This document shows positions 36,854-62,588 of a stretch of 64,000 nucleotides of DNA, piece by piece. Every line of letters starts with the position of its first letter. The stretch's first letter is position 1. The stretch covers positions 8,742,001 to 8,806,000 of the forward strand of contig OX442314.1 in NCBI GenBank assembly GCA_949358305.1, read 5' to 3'. Position numbers and translations under genes: made by a program. The notes beneath the pieces were generated by a model, which saw only the letters and a program-made list of their open reading frames with translations, did not search any database and was not told the origin of the DNA. The DNA is from Strigamia acuminata (Eukaryota).

Positions 36854-37343
36854 TCACACAAAATACATTCGAGAGGCGTCGTCGTGAAGCAGCACCGCCT
36901 TCTCCATTTGCTGGATGAGATGCTCGAGTTCCACGCCCGAATTATCCATCCTAAAAACAAAAGAAAAAATGAAAAACAATTTAATTTAATTTAATTTAAT
37001 TGCACGCACTTCTCCTGTAGTTGTTCCAGGTGCTTCCTCGCCCTGAACGCCGCCAAATGCGCGTAATACGCCGGCGCCGGGATCGAAACCGACCGCGGAC
37101 AACGAACGTACGTGTGACACAATTCGTACGTCAACTGGTGCAAATCGTCCGCACTGAAATCACTGTCGTCCCACAACACGTGATAATGCGTCGGCCGACT
37201 CGTCCCCTGCAAAAAACACGAATAAATCAATAAATTCCCTCCATTTAATTCAATTCAATTCACTTGAATTCCTTGATGGCTGCACAGAAAAACGTTGTTT
37301 TCGCTCGGATGGACGATGGCCCTGTCGACCACGGTGCTCGGTG
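36854..37343 (-). pseudogene. 5'-truncated Argonaute duplicate (last PIWI exons)
   Basis: [13 protein letters not shown]...CSHQGIQ / [14 protein letters not shown]...[11 protein letters not shown] / ...RMYFV*. Introns and ~300 bp of 3' flank are nearly identical to 62070-62900. No upstream exons. Confidence 0.9.
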
Positions 37344-38025
37344 GAACGTTCTTGCTTCTGCCGTACTTGGCGAAATGTTTTAACACGCCAAGTTTGCAAA
37401 AACAAAGTGCGTCGACTCCGAGGACAGGCCATTACACACGGCATACGCGGTTCATGGTTCGCGTCAAAGTTGAGCCGGAAAGCCGCCCGTGCCCCTGACG
37501 ATACACAGTCACTGTGAATCGAATTATTGATGTTTACATTCAATTTGAATGAGTGTAAACATCGTTCATTGTTGAACACTGCCCAACACTGTGACGGTAC
37601 CGGTGTAATTGGATTTTTTTGAGTTTATTTTGTATACTTTTGATTAATAATAATAAACATTTAGATTTTTTTACTAAACAATTACTGTGAATTGCTTAAA
37701 CAATTCGCTCGCTGTATAACGAATCGCGCTAAAATTGGGTTGGGTATTTGTTTATCGCGCAAAATCGATTAGCGCAAAATCGATTCGCGAATTAAATTTA
37801 CGCGCTAGATGACACGGACCATGTTCATGATGGGTGTACTCGTAATATAAATCCTATCAAAAGAAGGAATTTTTAGAAGAGACTCGTTTAGCATTTATCA
37901 TTTGATCAAATGTTAAATGGCGGCAGACTGAACTTTATGTCTAGACTTGAAAATCACCTTAATAATAATTAATAAATAAAGACATGAAAAAAAATCGTAA
38001 TGAATCCTCATTAGACCAATAATTC

Positions 38026-38845
38026 GGATTGTATTTATTGGCACACTATTTATTCTTTGTTTTTCACTAAAAGTGATTTTCGTTCGCACTACTTTTCTCC
38101 GCACTATTTTTTCCAATTTCACACTACAGATTACTTAACGACACACTAAATTTTTTTTTTTTTTTGCCGTTGGTTCAGTCAGACCTGAATCCCTAAGTTT
38201 GGAACGAATTGTCTTGGGTTTAGTTACACCATTTTGGTATAACTCACGTATTTTATTTTTCGACAATTGTGGTATGCCCTAAATCGGGAGAGGCTCGTGC
38301 ATGTGTGTGTCGATTGTGTAGTAGATTTCGCATTTATCGGAAGTTTGCGACAACAAAACGTATTTCTTTGCGCTGCAATCATTCGAATGGCAGCAGTCAT
38401 AAAAAAAATTTTCATTAATACTCGTTTGGTACCGCCTTCTCATTATCCATGTCTTCAAAGCTTGTAAAGCTTCACCAGAATTCGCATATTAGTAAGTGGT
38501 TAGCTTGTTCCATTCTAATCCTTTCTTTCGCCTTCGTTTTGGTGCAGGTTCAGTACAATCAACGTCGCTTTCAGATTCCGAAGATGAGAAGAGATTACGT
38601 GTAGTCATTGCTGCTATAAAATTAACAGTGTGAACCAGGCCTTTATATACTAAAAAGTGCTTAAACGTTCATGAAACGTTACTAAAATAGCGCCTGAAAG
38701 TTCATAAAACGTTTTTCGGTGGTAGTGACAAATAAAGAACATTTAGTGTAAAATTCAGTACAAATAGTGCGGAAAAAAGTAGTGCGGAAAACAATTAAAA
38801 ATAGTGCAAAATTAAGAATAAATAGTGTGCAACTAATTTATGGCG
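38026..38845 (-). mobile_element. Deleted Mutator-like element with N-terminal transposase remnant
   Basis: 9-bp TSD CAATAATTC (38017-38025, 38846-38854); inverted GCACTA/TAGTGC subterminal repeats; disrupted frame from ~38608 (MTTRNLFSSSESESD...W...CCHSNDCSAK...HMH, C2H2-type) with stops. Confidence 0.75.
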
Positions 38846-39146: not shown

Positions 39147-39800
39147 CTAAATGAGCTGTTTGAGTTGGACTTCGACGTTGGTCCATTCCTCGTCCGTGAG
39201 CGTTGGCCAGATGTGGTCGGGTTCGGTGACGGTGGTCTCGCCGGGCTTAAGGACGGCATCAGTTCGGTCCTTGTTCACGCACAGGGCCTTCAAGATAGAG
39301 GCGAGACGGGATAAGGCGGCATCGGATGAAATGGTTTTCAACCAATCGTCGTAGAGATTGAAAACAATCATTTGCGTTTCGGCCGCTTTTGTAATCAAAT
39401 CGCGGAATTTTTCAACCTTTAAACAGGCTTGGAAAAGGAGCTGGAGTTCGGTGCCCTTGATGGCGATGTTAGGAAAATCGAATAAATGGACTTGCAAGGG
39501 CTCTAACATTCCTCTCCGGGTAGCGATCACTTGTTTCGGCCGTTCCGCCACCGGTAAGGAACGAATGATTGCGCCCACATGTTCGGCAGTCTTCCATTTG
39601 GCTAATAAGGCCAAATCTTCCAGTCCGGCCCACGCGGATGTGTGGATTATTTGGAAGAACAATTTTCCGGTTTGCGGGTTTAGAATGAAAATAGCGCCGT
39701 TGATCGGCGCGGTCGTTACATCTCCTTCGAGGGCTTGGACTCTGTATACACAGGTATCGTCGACATACCAAACAATTTGATCGGCGCAAGAGCTATTCAT
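39147..39800 (-). CDS. Stand-alone Prp8 RNase H-like domain (domain IV) protein
   Basis: Intronless 217-aa [83 protein letters not shown]. No other Prp8 sequence seen in the window; AATAAA ~60 nt after the stop. Confidence 0.9.
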
Positions 39801-41172: not shown

Positions 41173-44100
41173 TCAAAATCCGGGATCCCAGTCGATTTTT
41201 TGCTCCGCTTCGACCATTTCGTAGCAGATTAAAGTGTCCCCTTGCTGGAACCTCACTTCATTGTCACTCAACCTCAAACCACACTCGATGTTCTTCTTAA
41301 TCGAATTCACTTCCTCTTTAAAATGCTTCATCGAAGACAACGTTCCTAAATAATAAATAAATAAATAAATATAAAAAATAACTAAATAGTTGTTTTTTCT
41401 ATGATTTTGCTGATTTTTAAATGTTTTTGGAGATTTTTAAATGATTTTGGAGATTTTTAAATGATTTTGGAGATTTTTAAATGATTTTGGTGATTTTTGA
41501 ATGATTTTGGAGATTTTTAAATGATTTTGGTGATTTTTAAATGATTTTGGTGATTTTTAAATGATTTTGGTAATTTTTAAATGATTTTGGAGATTTTTAA
41601 ATGATTTTGTTGATTTTTAAATGTTTTTGGTGATTTTTCTAAGGTTTTATTTTGATTTTACGATGTTTTTATCGATTTACCCTCAAACAAAACATCGTTT
41701 CCGCGTTTGAGTCGAAACTTGGCGCTCTTTTTCAGTGATCCTTTGATGCACTTTGCTCCTGCAACCGGCCATTTTTTCTTCCCTTCGGTGACGAGAAATT
41801 CCTGAAGTATTTCCGCCTCCCCTAAATTAAAAATTATAAATTATAAAAATTCATTTTAAATTTTTTTTAAAAAAGAAAATACCTATAATTTCTTCTCGTA
41901 GTGTGGTGGGTAACCGCGAGTTAATTTCTTCTTTTATGCCGTCAATCAATCGATAAATAACATTGAAGTCTTTAATGGCGATTTTTCTCCTTTTGGCAGT
42001 CTCTTTAGCATCGCTTAAAGTATTTGTGTTGAAGGAATACACGACAGCTGTGGAAAATAATCCTTAAATTCGTCAAATTCATAAATTTGTGCATTCATTA
42101 TTCTCTTTACCGCCACAAGCGTCTGCTAATTCCACGTCGCTCAACGTGACTGCGCCGACTCCGTAATGAATGACGTCGAGTTCGCACAGGGGTGACTGAT
42201 ACGTGTCTAACGTGTCTAAAATTGCATCTACTGAGCCATCCACATCACCTAATTAATTTTAAAAAATTAAGAAATAATTAAAATGAAACTTAAAACATAA
42301 AAAAATAAACGAAAATCGTCAAAAAACGTTTAAGAATCAACATAAAACGTGAAAAAACGTTTTAAAATGGAGGAAAATCGTTAAAAAACGTTTAAAAAAA
42401 TGAACGAAAATCGTCAAAAAAACCTTTAAAAATGAACGAGAATCGTCAAAATACGTTTAAAAATGAACATAAAACGTTAAAAAACATTTAAAAATGAACA
42501 AAAACGTTTAAAAATGAACAAAAACGTTTAAAAATAAACAAAAACGTTTAAAAATAAACAAAAACGTTTAAAAATAAACAAAAACGTTTAAATAAATAAA
42601 AAAATCGTTAAAAAATGAACAAAAAACGTCTAAAAACGTTTAAAAATGGAGGAAAATAGTTAAAAAACGTTAAAAAAAATGAACGAAAATCGTCAAAAAA
42701 CCTTTAAAAATGAACGAGAATCGTCAAAATAAGTTTAAAAATGAACATAAAACGTCAAAAAAACGTTTAAAAATGAACAAAAAACGTTTAAAAATGAACA
42801 AAAAACGTTTAAAAATGAACAAAAAACGTTTAAAAATGAACAAAAAACGTTTAAAAATGAACAAAAAACGTTTAAAAATGAACAAAAAACGTTTAAAAAT
42901 GAACAAAAAACGTTTAAAAATGAACAAAAAACGTTTAAAAATGAACAAAAAACGTTTAAAAATGAACAAAAAACGTTTAAAAATGAACAAAAAACGTTTA
43001 AAAATGAACAAAAAACGTTTAAAAATGAACAAAAAACGTTTAAAAATGAACAAAAAACGTTTAAAAATAAAGGAAAAACGTCAAACAACATAAAAAATCA
43101 ACAAAATCACCTTTAAGAATTATTAATAATCTCGGGCCCGTATCAGCGTCTGCGATTTCCTTCTGCCTCTGTACATATCCGGGTCTAAAATGTCCTTTTT
43201 TCAGCCTCTTGATCCTCTCTTCCTTGTAAATTCGATCGTGTTGCTTCATCTTCTCTCTGATGACTTGTCCTTCCGTGTCCAACTTCACCTGAGTCTTCTT
43301 GAACTCGCGCTCGGCGATCACAGCTCGAGCAATCTTCTGCAAATGTCCATCATCAACGTGTCCTCAAAACTGAGCATCGAAGCTTTAAAACGCTCCAAAT
43401 TTCCACCTCAAATCTTACGTACGTCCGATTCCACTTGGATGATTTCATCGCCGGCGTTTGGCAACTCTTTCCAACCGAGAATTTCCACCGGGGTGCTCGG
43501 GGGCGCCGAATGGACGAGGTTTCCGTGTTCGTTGAACATCGCACGCACCTACAAAGCATTTACATTTCTCAATTCAATCGTTTTGGTTACGTGTTTTTGA
43601 ATGTTTTTGGCTAATAAGAGCATTTTATTTCAGGGTTTTGGACTGTTTTTGCATGTTTTGTTAAAAAAACAATTGTTTTTGCTGGTTTATCAAAGAAAAC
43701 AATTGATTTTGCTGATTTTTCAACGTTTTTACTCGTTTTTGTCAGGGAAAACAATTGTTTTTGACTGTTTATCAACGTTTTTGCTCGTTTTTGTCAAGGA
43801 AAACAATTGTTTTTGACTGATTATCAACGTTTCTACTCGTTTTTGTCAAGGAAAACAATTATTTTTGACTGTTTATCAACGTTTTTTCTCGTTTTTGTCA
43901 ATGAAAACAATTGTTTTTGACTGTTCATCAACGGTTTTAGACTGTTTATCAACGTATTTAGACTATTTACCAACGTTTTTGCCCGTTTTTGCCAAAGAAA
44001 ACAATTGTTTTTGACTGTTTGTCAACGTTTTTAGACTGCTTATCAACGTTTTTAGACTTTTTACCAACGTTTTTGCTCGTTTTAGTCGAATAAAAAAATT

Positions 44101-46709
44101 TCATTTGAGTATAAACTGTTTTTTTGCTCGTTTGTCAATGATTTAAACTTGTGATCATCGATGACTTAAACTAATCACTAAAATTCTCTTTAAAATCCTT
44201 TAAATCATCGATAATTGTTCCGAGCAGCAACAACCAATAAAAGCAATTACTTTCGCCCAAGCTTGGCCTCCGACCAGCACAGCTCCCTTTCTCAACGTTC
44301 CGCTCTGTATAATCGCCGTGCACAGTTTCCTTCAAACAAAACACAAAATCAACACAAATTAACAACTACCGAAACCTATTTTACCCTCGAACGGGATCAA
44401 CCTGCGACTCCACAACCACTCCTTCGACCAAACCTTCGGGGTACCCTTTCAGCTCCATCATTTCAGCCTGCGTCAAAATTACGTCGATTAACGTGTCCAC
44501 ATTTTCGTTCTAAAATAATGATTAAAAAAAATTATTATATTAGTTTTTAATGTTTTTTATTGTTTGCGCACCTTCAGAGCTGATATGGCCACTACTTGAA
44601 CATCACCGCCGCCATCTTCTAACTGAATTCCGTGCTGCAAAAGCGATTTTTTAGCCGCGTCCTGTAAAATTTCAGTTTAATCATTTTTTTTTTACATGAA
44701 TTAATCAAAACCTACAATGTCCGCTTTCGGTTTGTCGATTTTGTTGATGGCGACAACAATGGGCACTAAATAAAATGTTAAAAAATCAAAAAGAAATCAT
44801 CAAAAATCGAATAAAATCATCAAAAATCATCAAAAATCAAAAGAAAATCGTCAACAATCGAATAAAATCATCAAAAATCAACAGAAAGTCGGCGAAAATC
44901 GAATAAAATCATCAAAAATCTAAAGAAAATCCTCAAAAAACGAAAATAAAACATCAAAAAAAATAAAATTATCATAAATGGAATAAAATCGAATGAAATC
45001 ATCAAAAATTATCAAAAATCGAATAAAAACAGAATAAAATCAACAAAAATCGAATAAAAACAAAATAAAATCAACAAAAATGGAATAAAAACCAAATAAA
45101 ATCAACGAAAATAGAAAAATTATAATTTTTAAAAACAAATTTAATTAACCATTGGCTTCGTTTGCATAACGAATCGATTCGAGTGTTTGTTCCATAACCC
45201 CATCATCGGCGGCTATCACGAGAACGACTATGTCGGTGACTGATGCACCACGAGCTCTCATGGCCGAGAATGCAGCGTGCCCGGGTGTGTCTAAAAACGT
45301 CACCGTTTCGCCGGAAGTGACTTTTACTAAAATAAAATTATTGCATATTGTATATTTTTAATAATTTATGTGATTATTGCGATGATGTACCGGAGAAAGC
45401 ACCAATGTGTTGAGTGATTCCACCGAATTCTTGATCCACAATGGAGGAGTTGCGAAGTGTGTCGAGAAGTGTTGTTTTCCCGTGGTCAACGTGTCCCATG
45501 ATCGCGACGACTGGAGGCCGTTTTACGAGCGATTTCGGATCCGGTGGATTTCTGTTTTGAAAATAATTGTTAATTAATCGTTCAAATCAGTTTGGGCTTG
45601 GGCAATTTTTTTTTATATTAAAATCAACATTTTTCAAGAATAAAACCAAATTTTGAGTTTTTATTTTAATAAAAATATTTTTTTATCGGAAAAACTTGAT
45701 TTAATCCTCTCGAAATTGGCTTTAATAAATAAAATGTTTGATTTTTTGGTAAAAATTGAATCTTTTTGCGTAAAAATTGAATCTTTTTGCGTAAAAATTG
45801 AATCTTTTGTGCAAAAATTGAATCTTTTTGTGCAAAAATTGAATTTTTTTGCGTAAAAATTCAATTTTATTGCGTAAAAATTCAATTTTATTGCGTAAAA
45901 ATTCAATTTTATTGCGTAAAAATTCAATTTTATTGCGTAAAAATTCAATTTTCTTGTATAAAAATTGAATTTTGTGCTAGAATAAAATTTTTCATGCAAT
46001 TCATGAAAATGTATTTTTTCCAATAAAAAAAATCGAATTTTCGTTGCACCTTTTTAACATCAATTCGACATCTTCATGTTTCCTCACTTTATCAGGCGCG
46101 ACGACAAAAACAGCAGTAAACCCAGCCTTCTTTACAAACTCATTCAAAATATGAGGATTATCAATAGCTAAAAACCAAAACAACCATAAACACAAAAAAA
46201 AACCAAAAAAATTCTAATTCTAATTACCAGAATCGGGCGTATCATAATCAACATCTTTGAAATGCCTCATCAACGCAAACATAAAATCTAAACCAAAAAA
46301 TAAATAAATAAATAAAATTCTAACAAAAATACAAAAATCAAAATTCCACCTAAATCTCGACCAAGTATTTCCGCCAACTCTTTAACCGTAATATTAATCC
46401 AAACTTTGACTTCATCGCCCCTGAATTTGTCCTTAACTTTCGGCAGGTACTTCAACAGTCTGTCACTTTTAGGCTGAAATAAAACGCACAAAAAAATACA
46501 ATTAATATTTTTAATTTTAATTTTCACATTTTCATACTAACTCTGGATCCCGCATTTGATTTCCTACGAGTGCACGACGTGTGGATTAAACTGACACAAT
46601 TTTCACGCTTTTCTAGTAGGTTTATATTCGAAAACCGCAGTAAATGTTTCAATCCAGCTGCTCTTCTTTCGTTTAATGTCAATTTCAAGCAATAGTTAAG
46701 CAATTTCAT
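41173..46709 (-). CDS. MTIF2: Mitochondrial translation initiation factor IF-2
   Basis: Multi-exon. [79 protein letters not shown], ends QKIDWDPGF*; basic N-terminal presequence. Confidence 0.93.
41405..41640. repeat. 20-bp intronic tandem repeat
   Basis: (ATGATTTTGGWGATTTTTAA)n. Confidence 0.9.
42300..43085. repeat. 20-21-bp intronic tandem repeat
   Basis: (AAAAATGAACAAAAAACGTTT)n; source of the KRLKMNK ORFs. Confidence 0.95.
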
Positions 46710-47310: not shown

Positions 47311-50018
47311 ATGTTGGAAGCAAAAACATTCTCCTACATTGGCTTAGCCATACTTGTGTTTTGTGGTCATGCTAATCTCAAATACACTGATTGTGGTAAG
47401 AACAACCCCTAGTGTACATAAACCTCAGAATCAACTCAGAATCACTTTTAAAAAACTGAAAAATTGCTATTTTATTTTAGGTGTTCAAACTGGCGTATTT
47501 GAAAAAGTTGAATTGATTCCACCTTGTGATACCGCTGTTTGTACTTTACCATCTGGGCAAAATGTTACCATCAAATTGACATTTAAATCAAGTAAAAATA
47601 TAAAATGATGAACAATTGTTGCAACAAACAAACAAAACAATTGTTGTATCAAACAAATAAGAAACAAAATTGTTGTCACTAACAAATTCAATTCAAAATT
47701 GATCAAGTTTAAAATAAAGGGTGTCCCAAAATTGACGCAAGATTTGAATTTGCCACCATTTTCACTAACCCTAAACCTAACCCTAAACTCTTGGCTGTCA
47801 ATTTGTTGTTGTCTCAGGGTTGCCAACAATTTACGGCACAAATGGCGGTAAATTCAAATCTTGCGTTAATTTTGGAACACCCTATACAGTCGAAACTCTT
47901 TATAACGAATCGCAAGGGACCGGACAAATCAATTCGTTATAACGAGAATTCGTTAAAACGAATTAGCTGCAAAAAATAAAATTTTATCATAAACAACATT
48001 ATTTATTCATAAAATCATGTTAATTTTATCCCGATTCTTAAAAACTGTTGAAATTATAAAACGGGACAAATTAAACTCAACTGCTACAATTGATAGCTTC
48101 TTGCCATTGTTAATGGCATTAAAAATGTTCAACTTGTCCTAAATCAAAATTTCTTTTCCTTTGGCAGCCATTTTAAAACAGAAAATTTTTCATTTTTTCT
48201 AAATGTGTTCCTGACATGAGCATAGGATGTTGTGAGTCATGTGATCAGTTTTGAAAATTCCGAGGGCTTGTTGGTATTACAGTGTACTTGAAAACTTGTT
48301 TGTTATAACGAATAATTCGTTATATAGGAAATTCGTTATAACGAAAATATTTAACATGGTGTTCTATGGCCGGCCAACCAAGTCATTCTTAACAATTCGT
48401 TATATCGATAATTCGTTATATCGCGATTCGTTATAAAGAGTTTCGACTGTATTTACATTTTTAAATTTTTGTTTTCTTTAATTAATTTTACTGCTTTTAT
48501 AAAAAATTTTATTACTGCAACGCCATAATAGACTAAATTAGATAAAATTTAATACAAACAAGTAATAAATTCTTATTACTGAATTTATGAAATTAAACCA
48601 AAATAGGCATAAAAATATTTTATTTTTAAATTTTATTTTGTAGTTTTGGTAATATGATCAACTGAAAACGATCCCTAGAAATCCGGGGCCCCTGGGAAAG
48701 CATCCAATAAGCCCCTGATGATTTCCCTTTGAGCATAAACCAATTTTCAAGCTAAACTTCTAAGAAAAAAAACAACAATAAAATTAAAGCCTGAAATGTC
48801 CACTTCATTCCCATTGAATAGCATGGGAATGACGTCACATGTACAGACACGAAACGAGGGCACGTGGTAAAAGGATGAACGGCCGAACGTTTTTGAGTTT
48901 TTGAATGCAGCTATTGTGTACTACCACTAGAAAAAGTAGTTCTTTTTTTATTTTTGTGATTATTATAATGATATACCGGTAAGTTGAATTGTATTTTATA
49001 ATTATTTTGTTCCATTTATAAAATGTCGTTTTATGCTGTTTTTAATTCAACACACAAGTTTGTTCAGTTTATTGATTGCTTTGTCTGGAAAGCGCACAAT
49101 TTTGAATTTTGTACCGTTACCTAGGCAATCGATTACAATGTCTGTACATCAATTGCAATTCTGGTGTTTTGGTCTATTTTTTGTATCACTACTCACTACA
49201 CAAGTGAAATGGCTCGGCCAATGGGAGAAAGGCCAACCTTATAGTTTGCCAGAGTATAGCAACATAGACCGAACCGAGTATTTTCATCGATGTATCTCAA
49301 CCAATCTCAGCGCATCGTGAAAATAATACACTCATGTTGGACATGAACGTAGCCATTTCGATTTTAAACACATTTACCTAGGCTTAAAGGTTAACAAACA
49401 CTCTTTTATTTCTACGGAAGAAAATTTAAAAATAAAAATTAAGAAAAATGTTACAAGCATATTGCTTTTGCCAAAGTAATAGAGTAATGAAATTTGAGTG
49501 CCAAAATATTGGAATAATCTACAACTATGGTATATAGCTTTAAATCACACATGTTTGCAAGAAAAAAAATTATTTGCTCTTCATTTTACTACTGTACCGT
49601 ATATTGTTTATAGTTTATTTTATTATAGTATATTTACTACTGTTTCTAATCTATAAACCAAAATATTTTTATCTATTGTATAGTGAGCATTACTCAATCG
49701 GTTAAAGTCACAGTACATGGGATATTAGGTGTGTTTCCAATACATTTTCCATTACCAAACTCCGACGCCTGTCAAGACAGTGGTCTCATTTGCCCATTGA
49801 TGGACGGTACCACGTACCAATATCACAATGAGATGCCTATATTATCCAGTTATCCAAAGGTTAAGACAAAAATATAAAAATTATGAATTTATTTATTTAT
49901 CTATTTATTTATTTATTTACCCGTATTCTTCCAGTTGGCAGTTACCATACAATATCAACTTGTAGACGAGAAGGGAGTGGATATAATTTGCGTAAAAATT
50001 CCTGTCCAAATTGTATAA
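47311..50018 (+). CDS. NPC2: NPC2 / ML-domain lipid-binding protein
   Basis: Exons 47311-47395, 47481-47591, 49684-49859, 49935-50018. Signal peptide, six Cys, FPLPNSDAC...CPL..G..YQY...PILSSYPK, ICVKIPVQIV*. Confidence 0.9.
47717..47884. mobile_element. Short mariner-like MITE
   Basis: AGGGTGT.CCAAAATT.ACGCAAGATTTGAATTT inverted at both ends. Confidence 0.75.
47887..48449. mobile_element. Tigger/pogo-like MITE
   Basis: TA|CAGTCGAAACTCTTTATAACGAATCGC ... GCGATTCGTTATAAAGAGTTTCGACTG|TA. Confidence 0.9.
48912..49258. mobile_element. Truncated MITE, TATACTC family (copy E)
   Basis: Core similar to 2350-2670; only the right arm GGCTCGGCCAATGG...CAGAGTATA is present. Confidence 0.7.
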
Positions 50019-50546: not shown

Positions 50547-51164
50547 TTACATGAACAAACAATCCAAAGCTGAATTGACACTTTCCACATCAAATCCATC
50601 GGGATCGAACCAACCGAACCGTTTAATCGTCTCGTCATACTCGATATTATGGGGATCGATCAAATTGTCAACGAGTCTTTTGAACTGCTCGGGTCCGCCG
50701 CACCGGTCGGGTGGCACGCATCGCTCTCCCACAATGCATCGCGGGTATTTCACTCCGATCTCGTAAGGTAGAAGCGTCTCGAGAACGATCTCGTGGTCCC
50801 AGTAATAATTTTTGTGCAAACCGAGGAAATTGTAGTAGTAATAAACGTGTTTTTCCACCAAATTCAAATATTTGGCGACGAGCACGTCCTCGTTTTCGAC
50901 GACGCAGTAGCCGTCGCCGATTCGCTCGTAATTGGCCATGGAATTAAACTGCGAATTTTTCACGACAAATCGATGAGGCAGATTATGGATCCAGCCCATC
51001 GCCACTTGCACGACGAGGTTTAATTGGCTTAGGGTGAAGTTTTGGGGGATTTGAATCTGCCGCCATATTTTCGGTTCGAACTCGTCGTCTTCGTCGATGC
51101 ACAGGGATATCTTGAGTTGGTAGACCACTTTCCAGACGTTGTAACGGTTCCGATCGGATGACAT
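50547..51164 (-). CDS. Plasmid pRiA4b ORF-3-like (MM3350-like) protein, copy 1
   Basis: VYQLKISL...PKIWRQIQIP.NFTL.QL..VVQVAMGW...H.F; YYYNF...WDHEIVLE; YPRCIVGERCVPPDRCGG; FDPDGFD...VN. Start placed at MSS (51164); the ORF is open to 51188. Confidence 0.85.
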   Translation of the reverse strand: MSSDRNRYNVWKVVYQLKISLCIDEDDEFEPKIWRQIQIPQNFTLSQLNLVVQVAMGWIHNLPHRFVVKNSQFNSMANYERIGDGYCVVENEDVLVAKYLNLVEKHVYYYYNFLGLHKNYYWDHEIVLETLLPYEIGVKYPRCIVGERCVPPDRCGGPEQFKRLVDNLIDPHNIEYDETIKRFGWFDPDGFDVESVNSALDCLFM

Positions 51165-51583
51165 TTTATCTATAAGTACTACCTTCATAGAAATTATTAA
51201 ATTAAATGTTACAATATCTTGGAAAATACATTACTTGTAGCCACATCGAATATGACGCTGTTTAGGAAACGAGGGAGCCAGCATGTGAGGAAATTGATAA
51301 CTAATTTTTGTAAGATGAAATGTTACTCACAGACTGATGTTATACGGAATGGAAGAACAGGTCTGGGGTTAGGCTTGAGCAAATTGCAAATGGCGGAAAG
51401 CATTTTCATTGAAAAATATAAATTAAATTGCACGATAAGAATTGAAGAATAATAAATAAATTATTTATTGACTCAACTATGAGCAATTGAGAAATGCATT
51501 ACAACTCGTGTCGCATGAATGAAATAAATAAAATGAATAAAATAAAATGAATAAAATAAATAAATGAAAAAGTGTTTGACGCT

Positions 51584-54500
51584 TCACACAAAATACATTC
51601 GGGAGGCGTCATCGTGAAGCAGCACCGCCTTCGTCATTTGCTGGATGAGATGCTCGAGTTCCAAACCCGTATTATCCAGTCTACAAACATGAAAAAATAA
51701 AAAAATAAAAATAAAATTGACAATTTAATCCGATTTATTCCACACACTTTTCCTGAAGAAGTTCCAAATGCTTCCTCGCCCTGAACGCAGCCAAATGCGC
51801 GTAATACGCCGGCGCCGGGATGGAAACAGCTCGCGAACAACGAACGTACGTGTGGCACAATTCGTACGTCAACTGGTGCAAATCGTCCGCACTAAAATAA
51901 CTGTCATCCCACAACACGTGATAATGCGCCGGCCGACTCGTCCCCTGGAAAAAAACACGAATTAATTTAATTTAACTTAATTTAATTTAATTCAATTCAC
52001 TTGAATTCCTTGATGGCTGCACAGAAAAAAGTCGTTTTCGCTCGGATGGACGATGGCCGTGTCGACCACGGTGCCCGGCGGAACGTTCTTGCTTCTGCCG
52101 ACGGCGTCGCCCAAATTCTCGCAGAAGAGGCGCGTGTGGTGGCGCTTTTGGACGACCAAAAAGGTGATGGACGGCTGGTAAGCTCGCTCCAGAGAGGTGC
52201 ACGCGGCTCTGATGGCCAACAACTCGTTGCGCAGCACCTCGTAAAACTGTCCTTCGCCCACCCCGTCGCGGTAGAAAATTATTCGCGCCGGTTTGAAGTT
52301 GGTGGCGCGCTTAAACTCGATCAACAATTCGCGCACTTTGTCTTTCAGAGTGCAAATCACTTCCTTGCGGGTGTCTTGCACGCAGATTTTCGCTAAATAT
52401 CGTTGCGCGTGTTGGTCCATACTCCCCACAACCTAAAATTTAAAAAAATTTAAAAAATTGGATAGAAATTTATTTAAAAAAGACCATACGGCAGCAATTG
52501 ATGGTCGTTTGGTTTCTCCCGGAGCCGGATGAGTGACGTCAGCGCCCAAAATGATGACCGGTGCTTGAAAAACCGAAGATCTGCAATTTATTTTTCCACT
52601 AAGTCGTTAATTCACATTCTAAATCGTTTTCAACCTCGGATATGTTCGATTCGGGCTCAAAATGCTGCTGGTTTTGCCCATTTTGGCGTTGATTTTCAGC
52701 AACAGATTAATCAAAGTGGCGCGATTGCATTTCTTTTCGATCGTGTTGGTCAGGATGCATTGAGTCGTCACGCCGAGCATAATGTCTCCGTTTCTTTTCA
52801 CTTCCCCTGTTGGTAAAATTAATTAATTACATTAAATTTTAATCACCAACTTTTTCTACCATAAAAGGGCATGTTGGCGAAGGGCAGAACAACCACGACC
52901 AACTGTAGCTTCTTCCACGCTGCAAACTCGCTGGTCACGTCACCTCGCGGCGCAAATCGTTTGTTGAACACCGGAGCCGCCATGGAAACACCGATTTCGC
53001 GACCCGTTTTAACCAGTTCTTTCCAAAACCGCCTGCACATAAAGGTGTAATAATAATAATAATACATCCACAATTTTTATTTTTAATTCTCTTTTTTACT
53101 CGATTTGGTCCGGCCTCGTTCGGCAGTCCGCATGAACGATTATGCCCCACGCTTTGATGGAGGCGCCCTCGTACAATTGAGATCCGTTCAGATCCCACAC
53201 GCCATCTCGCGGTCGTATCTAATAAGTAAGTAAATAAATAAAAATACAATCGACTTAGATTGGTTGCTAATACTTCTTTGTCGTCATTTAATTGGACGAG
53301 GGGTGGCGGCAACACTCGACCCGTGACACGCATCATTTCCGTCACGACGGAAATGCCGAATGCTTGCACGTTAGAATCTTCATTCAAGTTTGCCGCTTTA
53401 AGCTGTGCAAATGATAAATTAATTTCTTTCAATCTGTAGGAATATGAAATATACAATTCTACCAATTTCATAATTTCGTCCCGTCGTTCGGGAGCGGGAA
53501 GCGCCGTTTTCTGAAATTCATTTCGAAAAATTACAAAAATTGGATTTAAAATTTATATTTAAATTTTTCTACCCGGATCATGTTTGACGTTTGTATATCG
53601 GTCAGTTTCTTCGACAGTTGTCCGGCCAAAATGGTGCAAACCTGAAAATGTGATTTATTCCATTTATTTCACATAAAATTTGATATTTCAATCAATTACC
53701 TCCATCGGAAGAAACGTGTTCTTTTCGGCAGGTTGAGCCTGGAGAGTCGGCAAGCCGGCGTGTCTAATCGCAAATAAATTCTAAATATCGTAATTCTAAC
53801 CACTAAACAAATCGATTTATTACCGTAATCTGTAATTGTACGCCGTTAAAAAATACTTCTCAGTCGTATAAAAAGCCTTTTTTCCATCCTTTTCTACTTC
53901 AAAACTACAAAAACATTAATTAATCAATCAATTGTTTATTTATAATTAATTATATTTCTACCTGTGTTCCGAAGCTGGTATTCCAAGTCCAATTAGTCGA
54001 TATTTCCTGCGAGCAGACGGATTGTGGACGACTTGAATTCTCACGCCTAAAATGGTAAAAATCGAGTTCTCAATATGCCCACAGATGGCGCCGTAAAATA
54101 CATCACAAAAATATTAAGACTAACGAGCAGATTTGATCGGATTTGATAGATTTAGTTTGAAGAGGTTATCCATAAGCATAAAATTGCTGAACATATTAGT
54201 TCCTCCACTTCATCGCAAAATTTGAAACATAATACCAAATAAATTCCCCTCGGTCCCGCAAAATGGCGCATCACCAAATTCAAGATGGCGCATCACCAAA
54301 CTCAAGATGGCAGCTCTTTGTTTACCTCACGCTGGTTTACCTCTTATTTCTTTAGCGAACAATTGCCACTTCCTAGGAGGCAGCGAAGACAATTCGTCCA
54401 CGGATCTACATCGAAAAAACTCCACGGCGAAATCCAAGGCCGGCTGTGCTTTGTAAAAGCTTCGATTTGATACTGGAAAATATGAAAAATGAACGAAAAG

Positions 54501-56127
54501 AAATAAAAAGCAATAGAAGAAAGATAAAAACGAATAATACTGAATTAAAACGACTAAAAATGAATAATACTGAATTAAAACGAATAAAAATAATGAATTA
54601 AAACGAATAAAACTGAATAAAAACGACTAAAAATGAATAAAAGCCGGCATTAACCATCGAAATTCAACTGCAGCAAATCCTTCCACTTGCCGGGACGAAC
54701 ACTTTGGTAATATCCGCGCCACATTTCGGCCCCGCCGCCGAGGTCGTAACCGTGCGCTTGATCCGGGTACAAACTCCGACCAATCGAAACGTATCTGCAA
54801 ATATTGAGATGTTAAAGAAAATCTTCGATCAAGTTAAATCGTCTACTTGAGGGACGGCAAATGTCTCAATACGATGTCCAAAGCTTGAAGCGCGTGTTGC
54901 GGGACGTCCCTTATTTGGCCTTTTAAAAATCCTTCTAAATCTTTCAACGAGATTTCGCCCACTTTCTTGATCCCCACTGCAAACGTCCTTTCTTTCTCGT
55001 TGTCTTTAGCCATGTTGATGTTAAACAACATCTGCAATAACGACACGAATAGAAATAAATATAAAAATCGATTAAAAAAAAATTAATGTAAAATATCGAA
55101 TAAAACATGAAACAAACGTAAAAAATCGAATGAAAACATCAAATAAACGTAAAAACACCAAATAAACGTAAAAAATAAAATAAAAACATCCTAAAATCTA
55201 ATGTAATCCAATATAAACATAAAAATAAAATAAAAACCCCAAAAAACTGAATCTAATCCAAAATAAACATAAATAATAGAATCAAAACTCAAGATAAATG
55301 TAAAGAATAAAAAAAACCCAATCATTTTACCCCTCGGAAATCAATGCTTGGTATCTCGAGATTCGCATACAAATTCTTTTGACCGTCGAAAACGCATTTC
55401 ACACGACCAAACAGCGTCGCACAACTGCTAACAATTGCTTCTACGATTTCCCTACACACAAAAAACAAAATTAAAAATACACTAGATAAAAAAAAAATTG
55501 ATTTTTCACCGTTTAAAACCCTTATTAGCCTTCATTTCCGGTAAGATCTCAACATCATAATGATGTATCGTAGTACTCGTGTTAAAACTCACTAAAAAGT
55601 GATTGGCGGCTAACTGTATGGGCCGTCCACGTTTTCCTAAATCCTTTCGCACCGGCGGTTTCAGAAATCTGTATTTAGTCGGCGGCAGTTGCTCCGCGAG
55701 CGACATCATTTCTGGAAATTCTTGTTTCGGAACACAAACGGACGAAGAAACTTTTCGTACATCTGCTTCCAATACAATTTTCTCTTTTTCACAGTCGCCA
55801 TGTTTGCTTGGTTTCGGTACATCAACCGAGTTTTCCGAGTGGTTTGCCGCCACTTCCGGTGCTGCAACTGGACCTAATCAAACAAACAATATTTAATTTT
55901 TATCCCAATGATTTAAAAATTGAAATAAATGAATAAATAAATAATTTTTTTTTTAAATAAACATTGAGCGGCCATTTTTGTTACCGGCACTTGTTTAACA
56001 GCCTCAGTTGCTGCTGGATAAAAATATTTATGAAAATTATTTTGTTTTTTTAACATTTTAAATAAAATAAATTCTTACCTATTTGTTCCTGACCAGGAAC
56101 TCGCATTCGACCCCTCAAAGGTAGCAT
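51584..56127 (-). CDS. Argonaute (AGO clade), copy A
   Basis: Multi-exon N-PAZ-MID-PIWI gene: [40 protein letters not shown]...[43 protein letters not shown], ends MYFV*. Confidence 0.93.
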
Positions 56128-56829: not shown

Positions 56830-57354
56830 TCAATAAGGAAACGAAGCGAACGCAATTTTCGGATCGAATTCATCCAAAGCGCAAATGATTCCCAAAATCT
56901 CCGAAGGAGTCGCGCATCTTCCATCAACGCATCGCGGATACTTCTCGTCCGACTCCCGCAGCAATTTCTTCTCCAAAATTATCTTCAACTCCCACGAACC
57001 CTCGTCGAAATCGTACAAATAATGCAGCGTTTTGTTCTCGTTGTTGAGATAATTATAAATCGCCATTTTCTCCTCGTCGTACACTTCGGGGCCGTAAAAA
57101 CTCCAATTGTCCTCCATTTTGGGCGGAATGCCGATCAAGTCTTGCGTGCGCGTTTTCGAATTATTCGCCTCGAATAAGTGGAAATTGCTCTCCATCCAGT
57201 CCATCGCGTGGAGAATAGTCGTGTGCAGTTGCGCGAACGTGAAATTCGCGGGGATGTGCACACGGCGCCATATTTTCGGCTTTGTTCCCAACAAAATCAT
57301 TTTCAGTTGGAAGATTTTCTTCGTCTGTTTCGACGGAATTCCGGCCGACGACAT
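56830..57354 (-). CDS. Plasmid pRiA4b ORF-3-like (MM3350-like) protein, copy 2
   Basis: IFQLKMILLGTKPKIWRRVHIPANFTFAQLH..I..AMDW...FHLF; YLYDFDEGSWELKIILEK; YPRCVDGRCATPSE; candidate 5'-UTR GT-AG intron 57424-57368. Confidence 0.85.
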   Translation of the reverse strand: MSSAGIPSKQTKKIFQLKMILLGTKPKIWRRVHIPANFTFAQLHTTILHAMDWMESNFHLFEANNSKTRTQDLIGIPPKMEDNWSFYGPEVYDEEKMAIYNYLNNENKTLHYLYDFDEGSWELKIILEKKLLRESDEKYPRCVDGRCATPSEILGIICALDEFDPKIAFASFPY

Positions 57355-57974
57355 TGGAAATTGTTATCTGAAATGTTAAATAAAATTTTAAAATTGTTCG
57401 GTTAATGTTTTTGTGGTGATTTACCACGGGAACGGACGATTTCGTGACGAAAATGCTGATGGAAATGAAATCTGAAAATTAAATCCTCGGACTTAACATG
57501 GCGGACGTGAGTAAGCGATGCGAGCGAGTGCAAAAGAATTTATGTAAGTGTTTGAATATTTTAAATATAAATATTGTATTTTATATTTTTAATTTTTAAA
57601 TAGAAAATTTTATTTAATTTTGAATAAAGTTGTCTTGTTTTTAGAATTATCATCGTGAAATTTTAGTTCGGTATTTTGCCACGTTGGATCGGCGCTTCTG
57701 TCACACCAGTGGATTCCAGAATTGAAACGAATCTTTTGTTCTGTTCGACTAAATCCGGGATAAAAGTTTTAATTAACATTAATTTATAAGACATTAACTA
57801 ATTTTTATCGATATTTCATTTGGAGTCGACAGTTCGTCTTTATCTAGTGGTAAGTTATTTCTATTTAAAGGGAAAATTCCCCATTGCACAACTTTCGGTT
57901 TCGAATTTTGTGTATAAAAGCATTCGGCGTCATTTTTTGTGATTATCTCGCAATTTAGTCTCTAAAATTCAGTC

Positions 57975-60900
57975 ATGCCACGAAAAAAGGGTCAAAAACG
58001 AGTTACCGGTAATAAACAAGGTAAGAAATTGCCAGATTTTATTAATTTTTAAATTTTTATTGTTTAATTTTCTGTTTTTTTCGGTTTCGCAGGAGCTGAG
58101 GATGATAAACTCCCGTTCGCTGAATTGGTCGCTGCTGGTGATGCTTCGCAACAAACAACGGGTGAGGAATTATCGGGAAAACTACCCGGATCTTCGAAAA
58201 TGGCTGCTCAATGTTTGCTTCTTTATTTATTCTTTCAAGCTTTCCTTTTTTCTATTTTTATACTTCCATTTTTTAAATCACGGTGGTGAAAATTTGAAAT
58301 TATTTCTTTCAGTTGGCGCAGCTGCAGCACCGGAAGTTGAGGTAAAACTCGCGGAAAAAGCGGTTGATCCACCGAAATCGGAAAAAAATGGCGATCGAAC
58401 ACGATTAAAAAAGACAAAGGGTAAAAAAGATGGAAATGCGGTTGCACCGGATCCACAATCTGAACAGGAAGTACTCGCGGCCCAAGTACCCGAGGGGGAA
58501 ATGAGACCGGTCCGAAAGAAAAACGGTCAGAAAGACAAGATGGCGGGCGAACCGGATCTATCGAAGGTTTCGTCTTCCGCCGATGTATCGAAACAGGAAG
58601 TGCCGAGACTGATGTCACTCGCGCAGCAAGTGTCCGGTGACACCGGACTGAAGCCGCCGATAAGAAAGGATTTCGGAAAACGTGGACGGCCGATACAGTT
58701 AGCCGCCAATCACTTTTTAGTGAGTTTTAACACGAGCGCTACGATACATCATTACGATGTTGAGATCTTGCCGGAAATGAAGGCTAATAAACGTTTTAAA
58801 AGGTGGAAATTTGATGGATTTTTGATAATTGTGTTTTTAATTTTTTTTTGTGTGTGCAGGGAAATCATCGAAGCAGTTGTTGGCAATTATGCGATGGTGT
58901 TTGGTCGTGTGAAATGCGTTTTCGACGGTGAAAAGAATCTGTATGCGAATCTTGAAATACCACACATTGATTTCCGAGAGGTGAAATGATTGTTTTTTTT
59001 TTGTTTTTTATATTTATTTTGACTTTTTACTCGATTTTTTACATTTGTTTGACTTTTTATTCGATATTTTACATTTATTTGACTTTTTAATCGATTTTAT
59101 CTCTTTTTTGACTTTTCAATTCATTTTTTTGACTTTTTAATCCATTTTTTGACTTATTAATCCATTTTTTTTTTTACTTTTTAATCCATTTTTTCCACTT
59201 ATTTGACTTTTTTTATCAATTATTTTTATTTTTTTCACTTTTTAATTCATTATTTTACACTTATTTGACTTTTTAATCAATTATTTTTATTGCTTTGAGT
59301 TTTTATCGATTTTTTAAACTAATTTTTGTTTGTGTCAATATTGCAGACGTTGTTTAACATCAGCATGGATAAAGAAAACGAGAAAGAAAGGCCGTTTACT
59401 GTGGGAATCAAGAAAGTGGCCGAAATCTCGTTGAAAGATTTACAAGGATTCTTAAAAGGCCAAATAAGGGACGTCCCGCAACACGCGCTTCAAGCTTTGG
59501 ACATCGTATTGAGACATTTGCCGTCCCTCAAGTAGACGATTTATCTTCATCAAAGATTATGTTTAACATCTCGATATTTGCAGATACGTTTCGATTGGTC
59601 GGAGTTTGTACCCGGATCAGGCGCACGGTTACGACCTCGGTGGCGGGGCCGAAATGTGGCGCGGATATTACCAAAGTGTTCGTCCCGGCAAGTGGAAGGA
59701 TTTGCTGCAGTTGAATTTAGACGGTTAATGTCATTTTTTATTCCTTTTTATTCCTTTTTAATTTTTGTCTGCATTTTTAATATAGTTTTTACTCGTTTTT
59801 ATTCGTTTTTCACTCGTTTTTATTCATTTTCACTCGTTTTTATCCATTTTTACTCGTTTTCATCTCTTTTTACTCATTTTTATTCGTTTTTTACACGGGT
59901 TTTTTTCTCTTTTTTCATTTTCCAGTATCAAATCGAAGCTTTTACAAAGCACAACCCGCCTTGGATTTTGCCGTGGAATTTTTCCGATGTAGAAATGTGG
60001 ATGAATTGTATTCGCAGCCTCCCAGGAAGTGGCAATCGCTCGCTAAAGAACTCAAGGGTAAATGAATGGCGGCCATTTTGATTTTGGGGATGCGCCATCT
60101 TGAGGAAGCCGCTCATTTGAGAACTCTATTTGATCATTTCAGGCGTGAGAATTCAAGTCGTCCACAATCCGTCTGCTCGTAGGAAATATCGACTAATAGG
60201 ACTTGGAAAACCAGCTTCGGAACACAGGTAGAAATTTAATTAATTATAAATAAACAATTGATTCATTAGTTAATGTTTTTGTAGCTTTGAAGTTGAAAAG
60301 GATGGGAAAAAGGCTTTTTATACGACCGAGAAGTATTTTTTAACGGCGTACAATTACAGATTACGGTAATAAATCGATTTGTTTAGTGGTTAGAATTACG
60401 ATATTTAGAATTTATTTGCGATTAGACACGCCGGCTTGCCGACTCTCCAGGCTCAACCTGCCGAAAAGAACACGTTTCTTCCGATGGAAGTAATTGATTG
60501 AAATCATCAAATTTTAAGTGAAATAAATGGAATAAATCACATTTTCAGGTTTGCACCATTTTGGCCGGACAGCAGTCGAAGAAACTGACAGATTTGCAAA
60601 CGTCAAATATGATCCGGGTAGAAAAAATTAAATGTAAAATTTAAATCCAATTTTTGTAATTTATCAAAATGACTTTCAGAAAACGGCGCTACCCGCTCCC
60701 GAACGACGAGACGAAATTATGAAATTGGTAGAATTGTAAATTTAATCTCTAAGAATTGAAAGAAATTAATTGAGTGTGTGCACAGGTAAAAGCGGCCAAT
60801 TTGAATCAAGACTCGTTCGTGCAAGGATTCGGCATTTCCATCGTGACGGAAATGATGCGTGTTACGGGCCGAGTGTTGCCGCCACCCCTCGTCCTACTGA

Positions 60901-62588
60901 AAGACAACAAAGAAGTATTAACAACGAGCCTAAATCGATTCTATTTATTTATTTACTTATTAGATACGACCGCGAGATGGCGTGTGGGATCTGACCGGAT
61001 CTCAACTGTACGACGGCGCCGTCATCAAAGCGTGGGGTTTAATCGTCCATGCGGACTGCCGAACGAGGCCGGACCAAATAGAGTAAAAAAGAAAATAAAA
61101 AATAAAAACATTATTACATCTTTATATGTGCAGGTGGTTTTGGAAAGAACTGGTTAAAACTGGAAGCGAAATCGGTGTTTCCATGGCGGCTCCGGTGTTC
61201 AATAAACGATTTGCGCCGCGCGGTGACGTGACCAGCGAGTTTGCAGCGTGGAAGAAGCTGCAGTTGGTCGTGGTTGTTCTGCCCTTCGCCAACATGCCCT
61301 TTTATGGTTGGAAAACCTTGATGTTTAAAGTATAATTGAATTGAATTGAATTTTACCAACAGGGGAAGTGAAAAGAAACGGAGACATTTTGCTCGGCGTG
61401 ACGACTCAATGCATCCTGACCAACACGATCGAAAAGAGATGCAATCGCGCCACATTGATCAACCTGTTGCTGAAAATCAACGCCAAAATGGGCAAAACCA
61501 ACAGCATTTTGAGCCCGAATCGAACATATCCGAGGTTGAAAACGATTTAGAATGTGAATTAACGACTTAGTGGTAAAATAAATTGCAGATCTTCGGTTTT
61601 TTCAACACCGGTCATCATTTTGGGCGCTGACGTCACTCATCCAGCTCCAGGAGAAACCAAACGACCATCCATTGCTGCCGTATGAGCTATAAAATGTTAT
61701 CTAAATTGTTTCCATTATTATTGTTTTAATTTCTAGGTTGTGGGGAGTATGGACCAACACGCGCAACGATACTTGGCGAAAATCTGCGTGCAAGACACCC
61801 GCAAGGAAGTGATTTGCACTCTGAAAGACAAAGTGCGCGAATTGTTGATCGAGTTTAAGCGCGCCACCAACTTCAAACCGGCGCGAATAATTTTCTACCG
61901 CGACGGGGTCGGCGAAGGACAGTTTTACGAGGTGCTGCGCAACGAGTTGTTGGCCATCAGAGCCGCGTGCACCTCTCTGGAGCGAGCTTACCAGCCGTCC
62001 ATCACCTTTTTGGTCGTCCAAAAGCGCCACCACACGCGCCTCTTCTGCGAGAATTTGGGCGACGCCGTCGGCAGAAGCAAGAACGTTCCGCCGGGCACCG
62101 TGGTCGACACGGCCATCGTCCATCCGAGCGAAAACGACTTTTTTCTCTGCAGCCATCAAGGAATTCAAGTGAATTGAATTGAAATGAATTAAATGGAGGG
62201 AATTGATTAATTTATTCTTGTTTTTTTGCAGGGGACGAGTCGGCCGACGCATTATCACGTGTTGTGGGACGACAGTGATTTCAGTGCGGACGATTTGCAC
62301 CAGTTGACGTACGAATTGTGTCACACGTACGTTCGTTGTCCGCGATCGGTTTCGATCCCGGCGCCGGCGTATTACGCGCATTTGGCGGCGTTCAGGGCTA
62401 GGAAGCACCTGGAACAACTACAGGAGAAGTGTGTGCAATTAAATTAAATTAAATTAAATTAAATTGTTTTTATTTTTTCTTTTGTTTTTAGGATGGATAA
62501 TTCGGGCGTGGAACTCGAGCATCTCATCCAGCAAATGGAGAAGGCGGTGCTGCTTCACGACGACGCCTCCCGAATGTATTTTGTGTGA
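57975..62588 (+). CDS. Argonaute (AGO clade), copy B
   Basis: Same exon structure as copy A, with a longer charged N-terminus. DEDH tetrad (GADVTH, KEVI, YRDG, YAHL) and MID Y-K-Q-K pocket intact; ends RMYFV*. Confidence 0.94.

What the first reader, a model, noticed from the sequence alone, without database searches (positions are those of the whole stretch)
36854..62588. Candidate RNA-defence island: duplicated slicer Argonautes interleaved with bacterial-type pRiA4b ORF-3 genes and a solo Prp8 RNase H domain
Seen: the order is Ago 3' fragment, solo Prp8-RNase H ORF, [MTIF2, NPC2], pRiA4b-like 1, Ago A, pRiA4b-like 2, Ago B. Each complete Ago directly neighbours a pRiA4b ORF-3-like gene (gaps ~0.4, 0.7 and 0.6 kb). 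Known: PIWI and Prp8 domain IV both have RNase H folds, and pRiA4b ORF-3 is a mostly prokaryotic, mobile-element-associated family of unclear function. Inference: an Ago + pRiA4b unit may have been duplicated and kept together as a co-regulated antiviral or anti-transposon module. I know of no described system like this. Simple accumulation of young genes in a duplication-prone region is an equally live explanation.
Basis: partly seen in the sequence, partly recalled or inferred. Interest (0 to 1): 0.85.

Follow-up and report, generated by a model that had tools for sequence, protein, structure and literature searches.

The report
Centipede Ago2 duplication beside bacterial-type genes
A centipede-like genome carries two intact, slicer-type Argonaute-2 genes next to two bacterial-type genes of unknown function, and the alternating layout likely arose when one Argonaute was copied, inverted, into an older pair of those genes, so this is likely not a dedicated RNA-defence island, although one bacterial-type gene is strongly conserved and likely shares a promoter with the original Argonaute.

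Summary
The genes, order and gaps are as reported. The island reading is mostly not supported. Ago A (932 aa) and Ago B (996 aa) are intact 20-exon paralogs with the DEDH tetrad, closest to Strigamia maritima Ago2 (SMAR010593). They are 92.5% identical in the core (dS 0.17). The two PF07929 genes are only 35% identical, and the copied DNA holds Ago alone, so no Ago+pRiA4b unit was duplicated. One inverted copy of Ago B landing between two older pRiA4b genes explains the interleaving. The Ago 3' fragment is a dead DNA copy of Ago B. The solo Prp8 RNase H ORF lies about 12 kb from Ago A behind two housekeeping genes, with nothing tying it to RNAi. What survives: pRiA4b-2 sits head-to-head with Ago B (621 bp), is 87% identical to S. 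maritima T1JA37, whose accession is next to Ago2 (T1JA38), and is likely spliced. It looks like a domesticated prokaryote-type gene. PF07929 genes also occur in beetles, a spider and Daphnia. No host genome was held, and co-expression and binding are untested. A functional Ago2-pRiA4b module: about 10%.

The parts
36538..37363 (-). Dead DNA-level copy of the 3' end of Ago B: last ~110 nt of exon 18, introns 18-19, exons 19-20 and ~320 nt of 3' flank. It lacks the catalytic D, E and D and has no start codon in the Ago frame. It abuts a ~180-nt repeat also present at 35251-35407.
   Evidence: (2 and 1 mismatches to Ago B exons 19 and 20, versus 17 and 9 to Ago A)
39147..39800 (-). Intronless 217-aa ORF equal to the Prp8 RNase H-like domain alone. 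About 71% identical to human (counted by eye), with a 3-residue deletion near the N-terminal hairpin and the basic KR patch changed to ED.
41173..46600 (-). Mitochondrial-type translation initiation factor 2 (multi-exon housekeeping gene; 5' end approximate)
47311..50018 (+). NPC2-like ML-domain gene (start approximate)
50547..51188 (-). pRiA4b-1: single-exon PF07929 ORF, 213 aa, long branch, no close relative found; several family-conserved His/Asp positions changed
51584..56127 (-). Ago A: derived Ago2 paralog, 20 exons, 932 aa, DEDH intact, shortened N-terminal extension, faster-evolving copy
56830..57354 (-). pRiA4b-2: PF07929 ORF, 174 aa, 87% identical to S. maritima T1JA37; lacks part of the family's C-terminal region; likely has a spliced 5' UTR (acceptor 57369-57368, donor 57424)
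   Evidence: (X6 record 28)
57425..57974 (.). Short divergent spacer between pRiA4b-2 and Ago B, candidate bidirectional promoter; holds a TATCGATA palindrome at 57806-57813 (DRE label recalled; not above chance window-wide)
57975..62588 (+). Ago B: ancestral-like Ago2, 20 exons, 996 aa, DEDH intact, 74% core identity to S. maritima SMAR010593/T1JA38

Best explanation
The locus holds two intact Argonaute-2 paralogs and two distantly related PF07929 genes, and it likely took this shape when an inverted copy of Ago B (now Ago A) landed between an older, likely bacterially derived pair of pRiA4b genes that already flanked Ago2. Shown: gene structures, intact DEDH tetrads, the extent of the copied DNA, purifying selection between A and B (dN/dS 0.22), faster change in A. 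Inferred: both Agos slice siRNA-guided targets (viral and transposon RNA) as arthropod Ago2 does, and Ago A is specialising like Ago2 duplicates in other arthropods. Inferred: pRiA4b-2 is a domesticated gene transcribed from the promoter region it shares with Ago B, which would keep the pair together and co-expressed with no shared pathway needed. Both pRiA4b proteins likely act as small binding modules rather than with the family's original activity, because they lost conserved His/Asp residues. The Ago fragment is debris. The Prp8 ORF is a separate partial duplicate, probably under some constraint, and is likely unrelated to RNAi.
For: pRiA4b-1 vs -2: 35% aa, no blastn hit. Each scores higher against other family members than against the other. 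Ago A vs B: core identity 92.5%, dS 0.168, dN 0.038. The arms cover Ago from about 400 nt upstream to about 170 nt past the stop, and pRiA4b-2 fills the spacer between them. With S. maritima as outgroup, 31 of 42 polarised changes are in A (binomial p 0.003). Ago B keeps the S. maritima-like N-terminus. Both pRiA4b genes lie on the same strand, and a tree holding the centipede copies together is not rejected (AU p 0.64, likelihood 8.1 higher than the quick free tree). Tandem PF07929 copies occur in other arthropods: Asbolus RZC41463/RZC41464 on contigs of the same 9,682-nt length, three domains in one Oedothorax model, plus Tribolium and Daphnia. Variable, independent Ago2 duplication is known (PMC4833078, passages). 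Other local duplicates lie in the window. 0 of 12 family members match PADLOC.
Against: The pRiA4b-2/Ago2 adjacency likely persists in S. maritima although Ago has diverged 26% in the core, and pRiA4b-2 is more conserved (87%) than Ago, which a functional tie would also predict. No S. maritima ortholog of pRiA4b-1 appeared in three searches, so the ancestral tandem pair is inferred. The free trees place pRiA4b-1 apart, beside a Bacteroidota protein (97 SH-aLRT, long branches). The neighbours of the beetle, spider and Daphnia genes were not seen. The Prp8 frame would rarely stay open by drift (at most 2% with indels, 4.5-15% without, at an assumed 15-25% divergence), so the region is not pure debris.
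Confidence: 0.7

Rival explanations
1. pRiA4b-2 (and perhaps -1) is a co-opted cofactor of Ago2: co-transcribed from the shared promoter, it would bind Ago2 or its RNA and tune antiviral or anti-transposon silencing.
For: Head-to-head layout with 621 bp between start codons. Likely conserved adjacency in S. maritima. 87% conservation. Ubiquitin-like beta-grasp core, a common binding fold (Z about 5-6 to Ubl/FERM domains).
Against: No co-duplication with Ago. A partner of fast-evolving Ago2 need not be, but often is, fast-evolving; this one is slower than Ago. Two species of likely one genus are weak evidence, as gene order is normally kept at that distance (established knowledge). No PADLOC match. 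Three plasmid contexts read show recombinase, conjugation or transposase neighbours and no Argonaute.
Confidence: 0.1
2. The two pRiA4b genes are independent bacterial acquisitions, or one moved here later, and their closeness to each other and to Ago2 is accidental, with no shared promoter.
For: The free trees do not group them. pRiA4b-1 has no S. maritima match. The TATCGATA motif is not enriched window-wide (2 found, 1.02 expected).
Against: Two members of a family rare in animals lie 5.6 kb apart on one strand. The constrained tree scores higher than the free one.
Confidence: 0.15
3. Ago A and B are a mis-assembly of two haplotypes, or the pRiA4b genes are bacterial contamination.
For: Inverted repeats can be assembly artefacts. 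No single contig spans the whole stretch.
Against: A and B differ at dS 0.17 with diverged introns and N-termini. Contigs bridge each pRiA4b gene to Ago exons, in runs of two studies. GC and GC3 of the pRiA4b ORFs resemble host genes. An ortholog exists in S. maritima.
Confidence: 0.02

Closest known systems
Strigamia maritima Ago2, SMAR010593 / UniProt T1JA38 ('AGO1/2-like-2' in PMC4244043 Table S30; 'RNAi Ago2' in PMC4833078 supplement)
   Same: 74% core identity to Ago B, same N-terminal start, DEDH tetrad.
   Different: Here there are two recent inverted paralogs plus a fragment. The two S. maritima AGO1/2-like genes have unlike N-termini, so they likely stem from an older split.
Lineage-specific Ago2 duplicates of arthropods (PMC4833078; Drosophila obscura group, PMC6505081)
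   Same: Recent duplication, intact catalytic site, asymmetric rates.
   Different: Testis bias and positive selection, reported for obscura duplicates, are untested here.
PF07929 PRiA4_ORF3 / MM3350 of Methanosarcina mazei (PDB 2I1S); passenger ORF of ISAzba1-group transposons (PMC3942029)
   Same: Pfam scores 113 bits against a cut-off of 26.6. Same fold for the S. maritima ortholog's model: Z 22.5, rmsd 2.2, 155 aligned.
   Different: Host chromosome, likely spliced UTR, no adjacent transposase seen. Family-conserved H, D and G positions are changed, and pRiA4b-2 lacks about 30 residues near the C-terminus.
Arthropod PF07929 genes (Asbolus, Tribolium madens, Oedothorax, Daphnia sinensis)
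   Same: Same family in animal genomes, often as tandem genes or domains.
   Different: They form separate clades in my trees; their neighbours were not seen.
Prp8 RNase H-like domain (human residues about 1773-1987; PDB 3ENB, 4JKE)
   Same: Covers almost exactly the crystallised domain, E 1.5e-98.
   Different: Stand-alone, intronless, about 29% diverged from human, the rest of Prp8 absent.

Membership tests
Arthropod Ago2 (AGO clade, siRNA pathway) | Full N-PAZ-MID-PIWI architecture | tested here: met
   ArgoN and Piwi hits; end-to-end alignment to T1JA38 and vertebrate AGO
Arthropod Ago2 (AGO clade, siRNA pathway) | AGO clade rather than PIWI clade | tested here: met
   PIWI exon: E 4.8e-57 to human AGO2, 7e-18 or weaker to PIWI proteins
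Arthropod Ago2 (AGO clade, siRNA pathway) | Ago2 rather than the conserved Ago1 lineage | tested here: met
   Best relative is SMAR010593, listed as Ago2 while SMAR007228 is Ago1; 46-49% to mollusc and vertebrate AGO, which are 73-85% alike among themselves. I built no Ago tree of my own.
Arthropod Ago2 (AGO clade, siRNA pathway) | DEDH catalytic tetrad | tested here: met
   [24 protein letters not shown] in A and B
Arthropod Ago2 (AGO clade, siRNA pathway) | siRNA loading and target slicing | not testable with these tools
   Needs small-RNA IP and a cleavage assay
PF07929 PRiA4_ORF3 | Profile score above the Pfam cut-off | tested here: met
   113.8 and 113.2 bits against 26.6
PF07929 PRiA4_ORF3 | MM3350 fold | tested here: met
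   Model of P0121 (87% to pRiA4b-2), pLDDT 83; Foldseek E 3.9e-14; VIA Z 22.5. pRiA4b-1 was not folded.
PF07929 PRiA4_ORF3 | Complete set of conserved His/Asp residues (H..HLH..YDFGD.W.H) | tested here: not met
   Among 188 domains: pRiA4b-1 changes H (90%), H (91%), D (95%), D (90%); pRiA4b-2 changes H (91%), H (98%), P (94%), G (93%). Their role is unknown, so this lowers 'same activity', not family descent.
Transposon passenger (ISAzba1-type) | Adjacent transposase or recombinase within element ends | tested here: not met
   Flanks are NPC2 and Ago genes; no transposase-length ORF between 50 and 58 kb
Co-functional defence cluster | Genes duplicated or moved as one unit | tested here: not met
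Co-functional defence cluster | Linkage kept in relatives | tested here: inconclusive
   One congener-level case, inferred from accession order; deeper lineages not seen
Co-functional defence cluster | Genome-wide enrichment of PF07929 beside Ago | not testable with these tools
   No genome held
Co-functional defence cluster | Co-expression or physical interaction | not testable with these tools
Prp8 (full spliceosomal protein) | RT, endonuclease, RNase H and Jab1 domains in one gene | tested here: not met
   Only domain IV; stops flank the ORF in its frame

The most novel reading that the evidence does not exclude
Centipedes recruited a prokaryotic mobile-element protein of unknown function (PF07929, beta-grasp fold) as a partner of antiviral Ago2: it is wired to the Ago2 promoter, held at 87% identity while Ago2 races ahead, and stripped of its original His/Asp site to serve as a binding cofactor of RISC. 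A stand-alone Prp8 RNase H domain nearby would be a second recruited module.
Probability: 0.1. Interest if true: 0.85.

Novelty: new member of a known kind. Interest (0 to 1): 0.33.

Why it matters
As it stands, the locus adds a centipede case of Ago2 duplication with asymmetric evolution, and a conserved, likely domesticated PF07929 gene. I found no mention of that gene in the myriapod transfer survey (PMC9151784: main-text passages; 0 hits for five family terms in its supplements, one picture PDF unread). PF07929 is common in prokaryotes and on plasmids (2,779 of 72,556 plasmid records) yet has no known function, so a constrained animal copy is a handle on it. If it proved to be an Ago2 cofactor, it would be a bacterially derived part of animal RNAi, for which my searches found no report. 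The stand-alone Prp8 RNase H ORF is a separate oddity worth one expression check.

Tried and rejected
No host genome, so no genome-wide count of Ago, PF07929 or Prp8 copies. Word-based homolog search with pRiA4b-1 alone: 0 of 67 candidates scored. NCBIfam: 0 of 3 proteins. PADLOC: 0 of 12. No RNA holder listed for the stretch; this is no evidence on expression. Expression of pRiA4b-1, Ago A, Ago B and the Prp8 ORF stays unshown, and the 19 off-target letters of the pRiA4b-2 contig were not seen. Prp8 ORF relatives: none confirmed among 258 metagenome and 34 viral pattern matches; the host's own Prp8 was not obtained, so no dN/dS. Prokaryotic context survey: the family alignment was too diverse, and a single query gave 2 loci, not analysed; I read only 3 plasmid regions of 25 listed. 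Complex prediction of Ago2 with pRiA4b was not available, so binding has no verdict. ESM Atlas returned only PF07929 clusters for pRiA4b-1; the second query did not complete. Second fold match, a SNAPc chain (7xur_B, Z 8.1, rmsd 4.8), is at the level common for unrelated folds, and no SNAPc family appeared among 70 members in Pfam at E 1: left as a lead. TATCGATA as promoter proof: 26 of 100 shuffles reach the count, rejected as evidence. S. maritima coordinates: none found in three supplements searched; most of that paper's 57 files were not read. The 'shared RNase H fold' argument was rejected: Prp8's domain is a spliceosomal scaffold (recalled), and a shared fold implies no shared pathway.
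Full report
Observation. All named genes are present. Pfam finds PRP8_domainIV at 39150-39800(-), PRiA4_ORF3 twice, and Piwi and ArgoN exons; exon pieces confirm an IF-2 gene and an ML-domain gene between them. Exon models give Ago A at 56127-51584(-), 932 aa, and Ago B at 57975-62588(+), 996 aa, each with 20 exons, GT-AG introns and no internal stop. Both keep the DEDH tetrad. The gaps are 396, 703 and 621 bp. Contigs of public runs bridge pRiA4b-1 to Ago A and pRiA4b-2 to Ago B, so the pRiA4b genes belong to the host chromosome.

Organism and Ago class. Among the 120 listed of 242 hits, the PIWI exon is 81% identical to a Strigamia maritima protein (T1JA38) and 74% to Hemiscolopendra Argonaute-2, against 49-66% for the rest. 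T1JA38 matches SMAR010593, listed as Ago2 in the supplement of PMC4833078 (rows and one alignment block seen) and as 'AGO1/2-like-2' in Table S30 of PMC4244043 (rows seen). The window therefore likely comes from a Strigamia-like centipede, and both genes are Ago2 paralogs. PMC4833078 (passages) reports that Ago2 copy number varies widely and that duplications arose independently.

What was duplicated. Self-comparison shows Ago A and B as inverted arms. Finer alignment extends them from about 400 nt upstream of the start to about 170 nt past the stop. Core identity is 92.5%, dS 0.168, dN/dS 0.22. With S. maritima as outgroup, 31 of 42 polarised residue changes fall on A (residues 661-730, where the S. 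maritima model looks mis-spliced, were left out; p 0.003), and B keeps the ancestral-like N-terminus. The arms contain no pRiA4b coding DNA; pRiA4b-2 fills the spacer. The two pRiA4b proteins are 35% identical and each scores higher against other family members than against the other. They split long before the Agos did. This rules out a duplicated Ago+pRiA4b unit. The simplest history is NPC2, pRiA4b-1, pRiA4b-2, Ago2, with an inverted Ago copy later landing between the two pRiA4b genes. One event then yields the whole alternating pattern.

The Ago fragment. It differs from Ago B exons 19 and 20 at 2 and 1 positions, keeps the introns, and runs into B's 3' flank. It starts inside exon 18, after three of the four catalytic residues, has no start codon in frame, and abuts a repeat found again at 35251-35407. 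It is a dead copy.

The pRiA4b genes. pRiA4b-2 is 87% identical over 174 of 174 residues to S. maritima T1JA37, more conserved than the Ago core (74%). T1JA37 and T1JA38 are consecutive accessions. SMAR numbers follow genome order in the Hox cluster (lab 4159, Dfd 4162, ftz 4163, Ubx 4167; 4 of 6 terms found). That UniProt order follows SMAR order is recalled, so adjacency in S. maritima is likely, not seen, and its orientation is unknown. Run X6 is of unrecorded kind but behaves like RNA: one contig skips Ago intron 18, though it is only about 91% alike and may come from another paralog. Another X6 contig covers 57146-57368 and begins at the AG acceptor with 19 extra letters; a GT donor lies at 57424 after a G. 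A spliced 5' UTR is therefore likely. No close relative of pRiA4b-1 was found. Of 20 top hits that I looked up among 150, 6 carried arthropod names (Oedothorax, Asbolus three times, Tribolium madens, Daphnia sinensis), 3 clusters carried bacterial names, and 11 were unnamed. Trees of 188 and 54 domains are poorly resolved; beetle and spider copies form separate clades, the centipede pair is split in the free trees but not rejected as a clade (AU p 0.64). Bacterial origin is inferred from the family's range; donor and number of transfers are open. The fold is that of MM3350, with a ubiquitin-like core. Both centipede proteins changed several His/Asp/Gly positions kept in 90% or more of 188 domains. 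In bacteria the family rides on transposons and plasmids with unknown function (PMC3942029, passages) and matches no PADLOC model.

The Prp8 ORF. It spans almost exactly the RNase H-like domain and is about 71% identical to human by my count from that alignment. Prp8-like residues seem to continue a few codons past the stop in another frame (comparison to Prp8 recalled), as expected of a fragment trimmed by frameshifts. It may be a real small gene. It lies about 12 kb from Ago A behind MTIF2 and NPC2, and I found no tie to RNAi.

How it likely works. Ago B likely serves as the ordinary siRNA slicer and Ago A as a diverging duplicate, as described for obscura-group Drosophila (PMC6505081, passages). 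pRiA4b-2 likely draws on the same short promoter region as Ago B, which would explain both its survival after transfer and the kept linkage without any shared pathway. The cofactor reading stays open at about 10%: the pair is tight and conserved, but only at likely genus level, and neither binding nor co-expression could be tested.

Literature. Full-text searches: 'pRiA4b' (37 papers, 34 listed), family accessions (3 papers), 'argonaute' with 'pRiA4' (7 papers, all plant studies by listing), centipede transfer terms, Prp8 RNase H duplicates. From titles and abstract starts, none describes an Ago-PF07929 link, an animal PF07929 gene or a solo Prp8 domain. The library lacks most subscription papers, and unread supplements of PMC4244043 may hold the S. 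maritima coordinates. One earlier scan note (e1-9820531) reports a five-gene PF07929 array in another arthropod; it is a lead only.

Verdict. Real locus, ordinary mechanism, one interesting passenger. New member of known kinds; interest 0.33.

Noticed in passing
window 51789-51830 and 62346-62387: In three DNA-like runs, short contigs carrying the Ago B-type letters of exon 19 have summed depth about 14-25 times that of single-copy contigs at one place (1246 vs 88; 7420 vs 296; 471 vs 25), with loose ends at 62329. This hints that pieces of the Ago2 3' end are dispersed in many copies; summed depth is not a copy number.
   Followed up: partly
window 61788-62290: Run X6 holds a spliced Ago contig only about 91% alike to exon 18, where A and B differ at 4 of 432 bases: likely a third Ago2-like paralog or a diverged relative.
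   Followed up: no
window 61737-62168 vs 52432-52001: Exon 18 is far more alike between Ago A and B (4 of 432 bases) than its neighbours (17 of 197 in exon 19), which suggests recent gene conversion over the catalytic core.
   Followed up: no
window 4849-9634: Intact Ty3/gypsy-type LTR retrotransposon: identical 154-nt terminal repeats and a 1380-aa gag-pol frame with RT, RNase H and integrase; a very recent insertion.
   Followed up: partly
window 28116-32798, 30012-30141 vs 34863-34993: Further local duplicates at 75-80% identity, with a RING-finger ORF at 31494-31802 and a glyoxalase-like exon near 30050 (label recalled).
   Followed up: no
window 62901-63673, 40249-40782, 38035-38836: Elements with terminal inverted repeats (MITE-like); the first begins where the Ago fragment's match to Ago B's flank ends, and the other two flank the Prp8 ORF.
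   Followed up: no
model of P0121 (ortholog of window 56830-57354): After MM3350, the best structural match is a chain of human mini-SNAPc (7xur_B, Z 8.1, rmsd 4.8, 139 aligned), then ubiquitin-like domains. A possible distant kinship of PF07929 with a SNAPc subunit is untested.
   Followed up: partly
window 11700-23000: Multi-exon gene with a weak C1-domain hit; its exons read like a Ras guanine-nucleotide exchange factor (label recalled).
   Followed up: no
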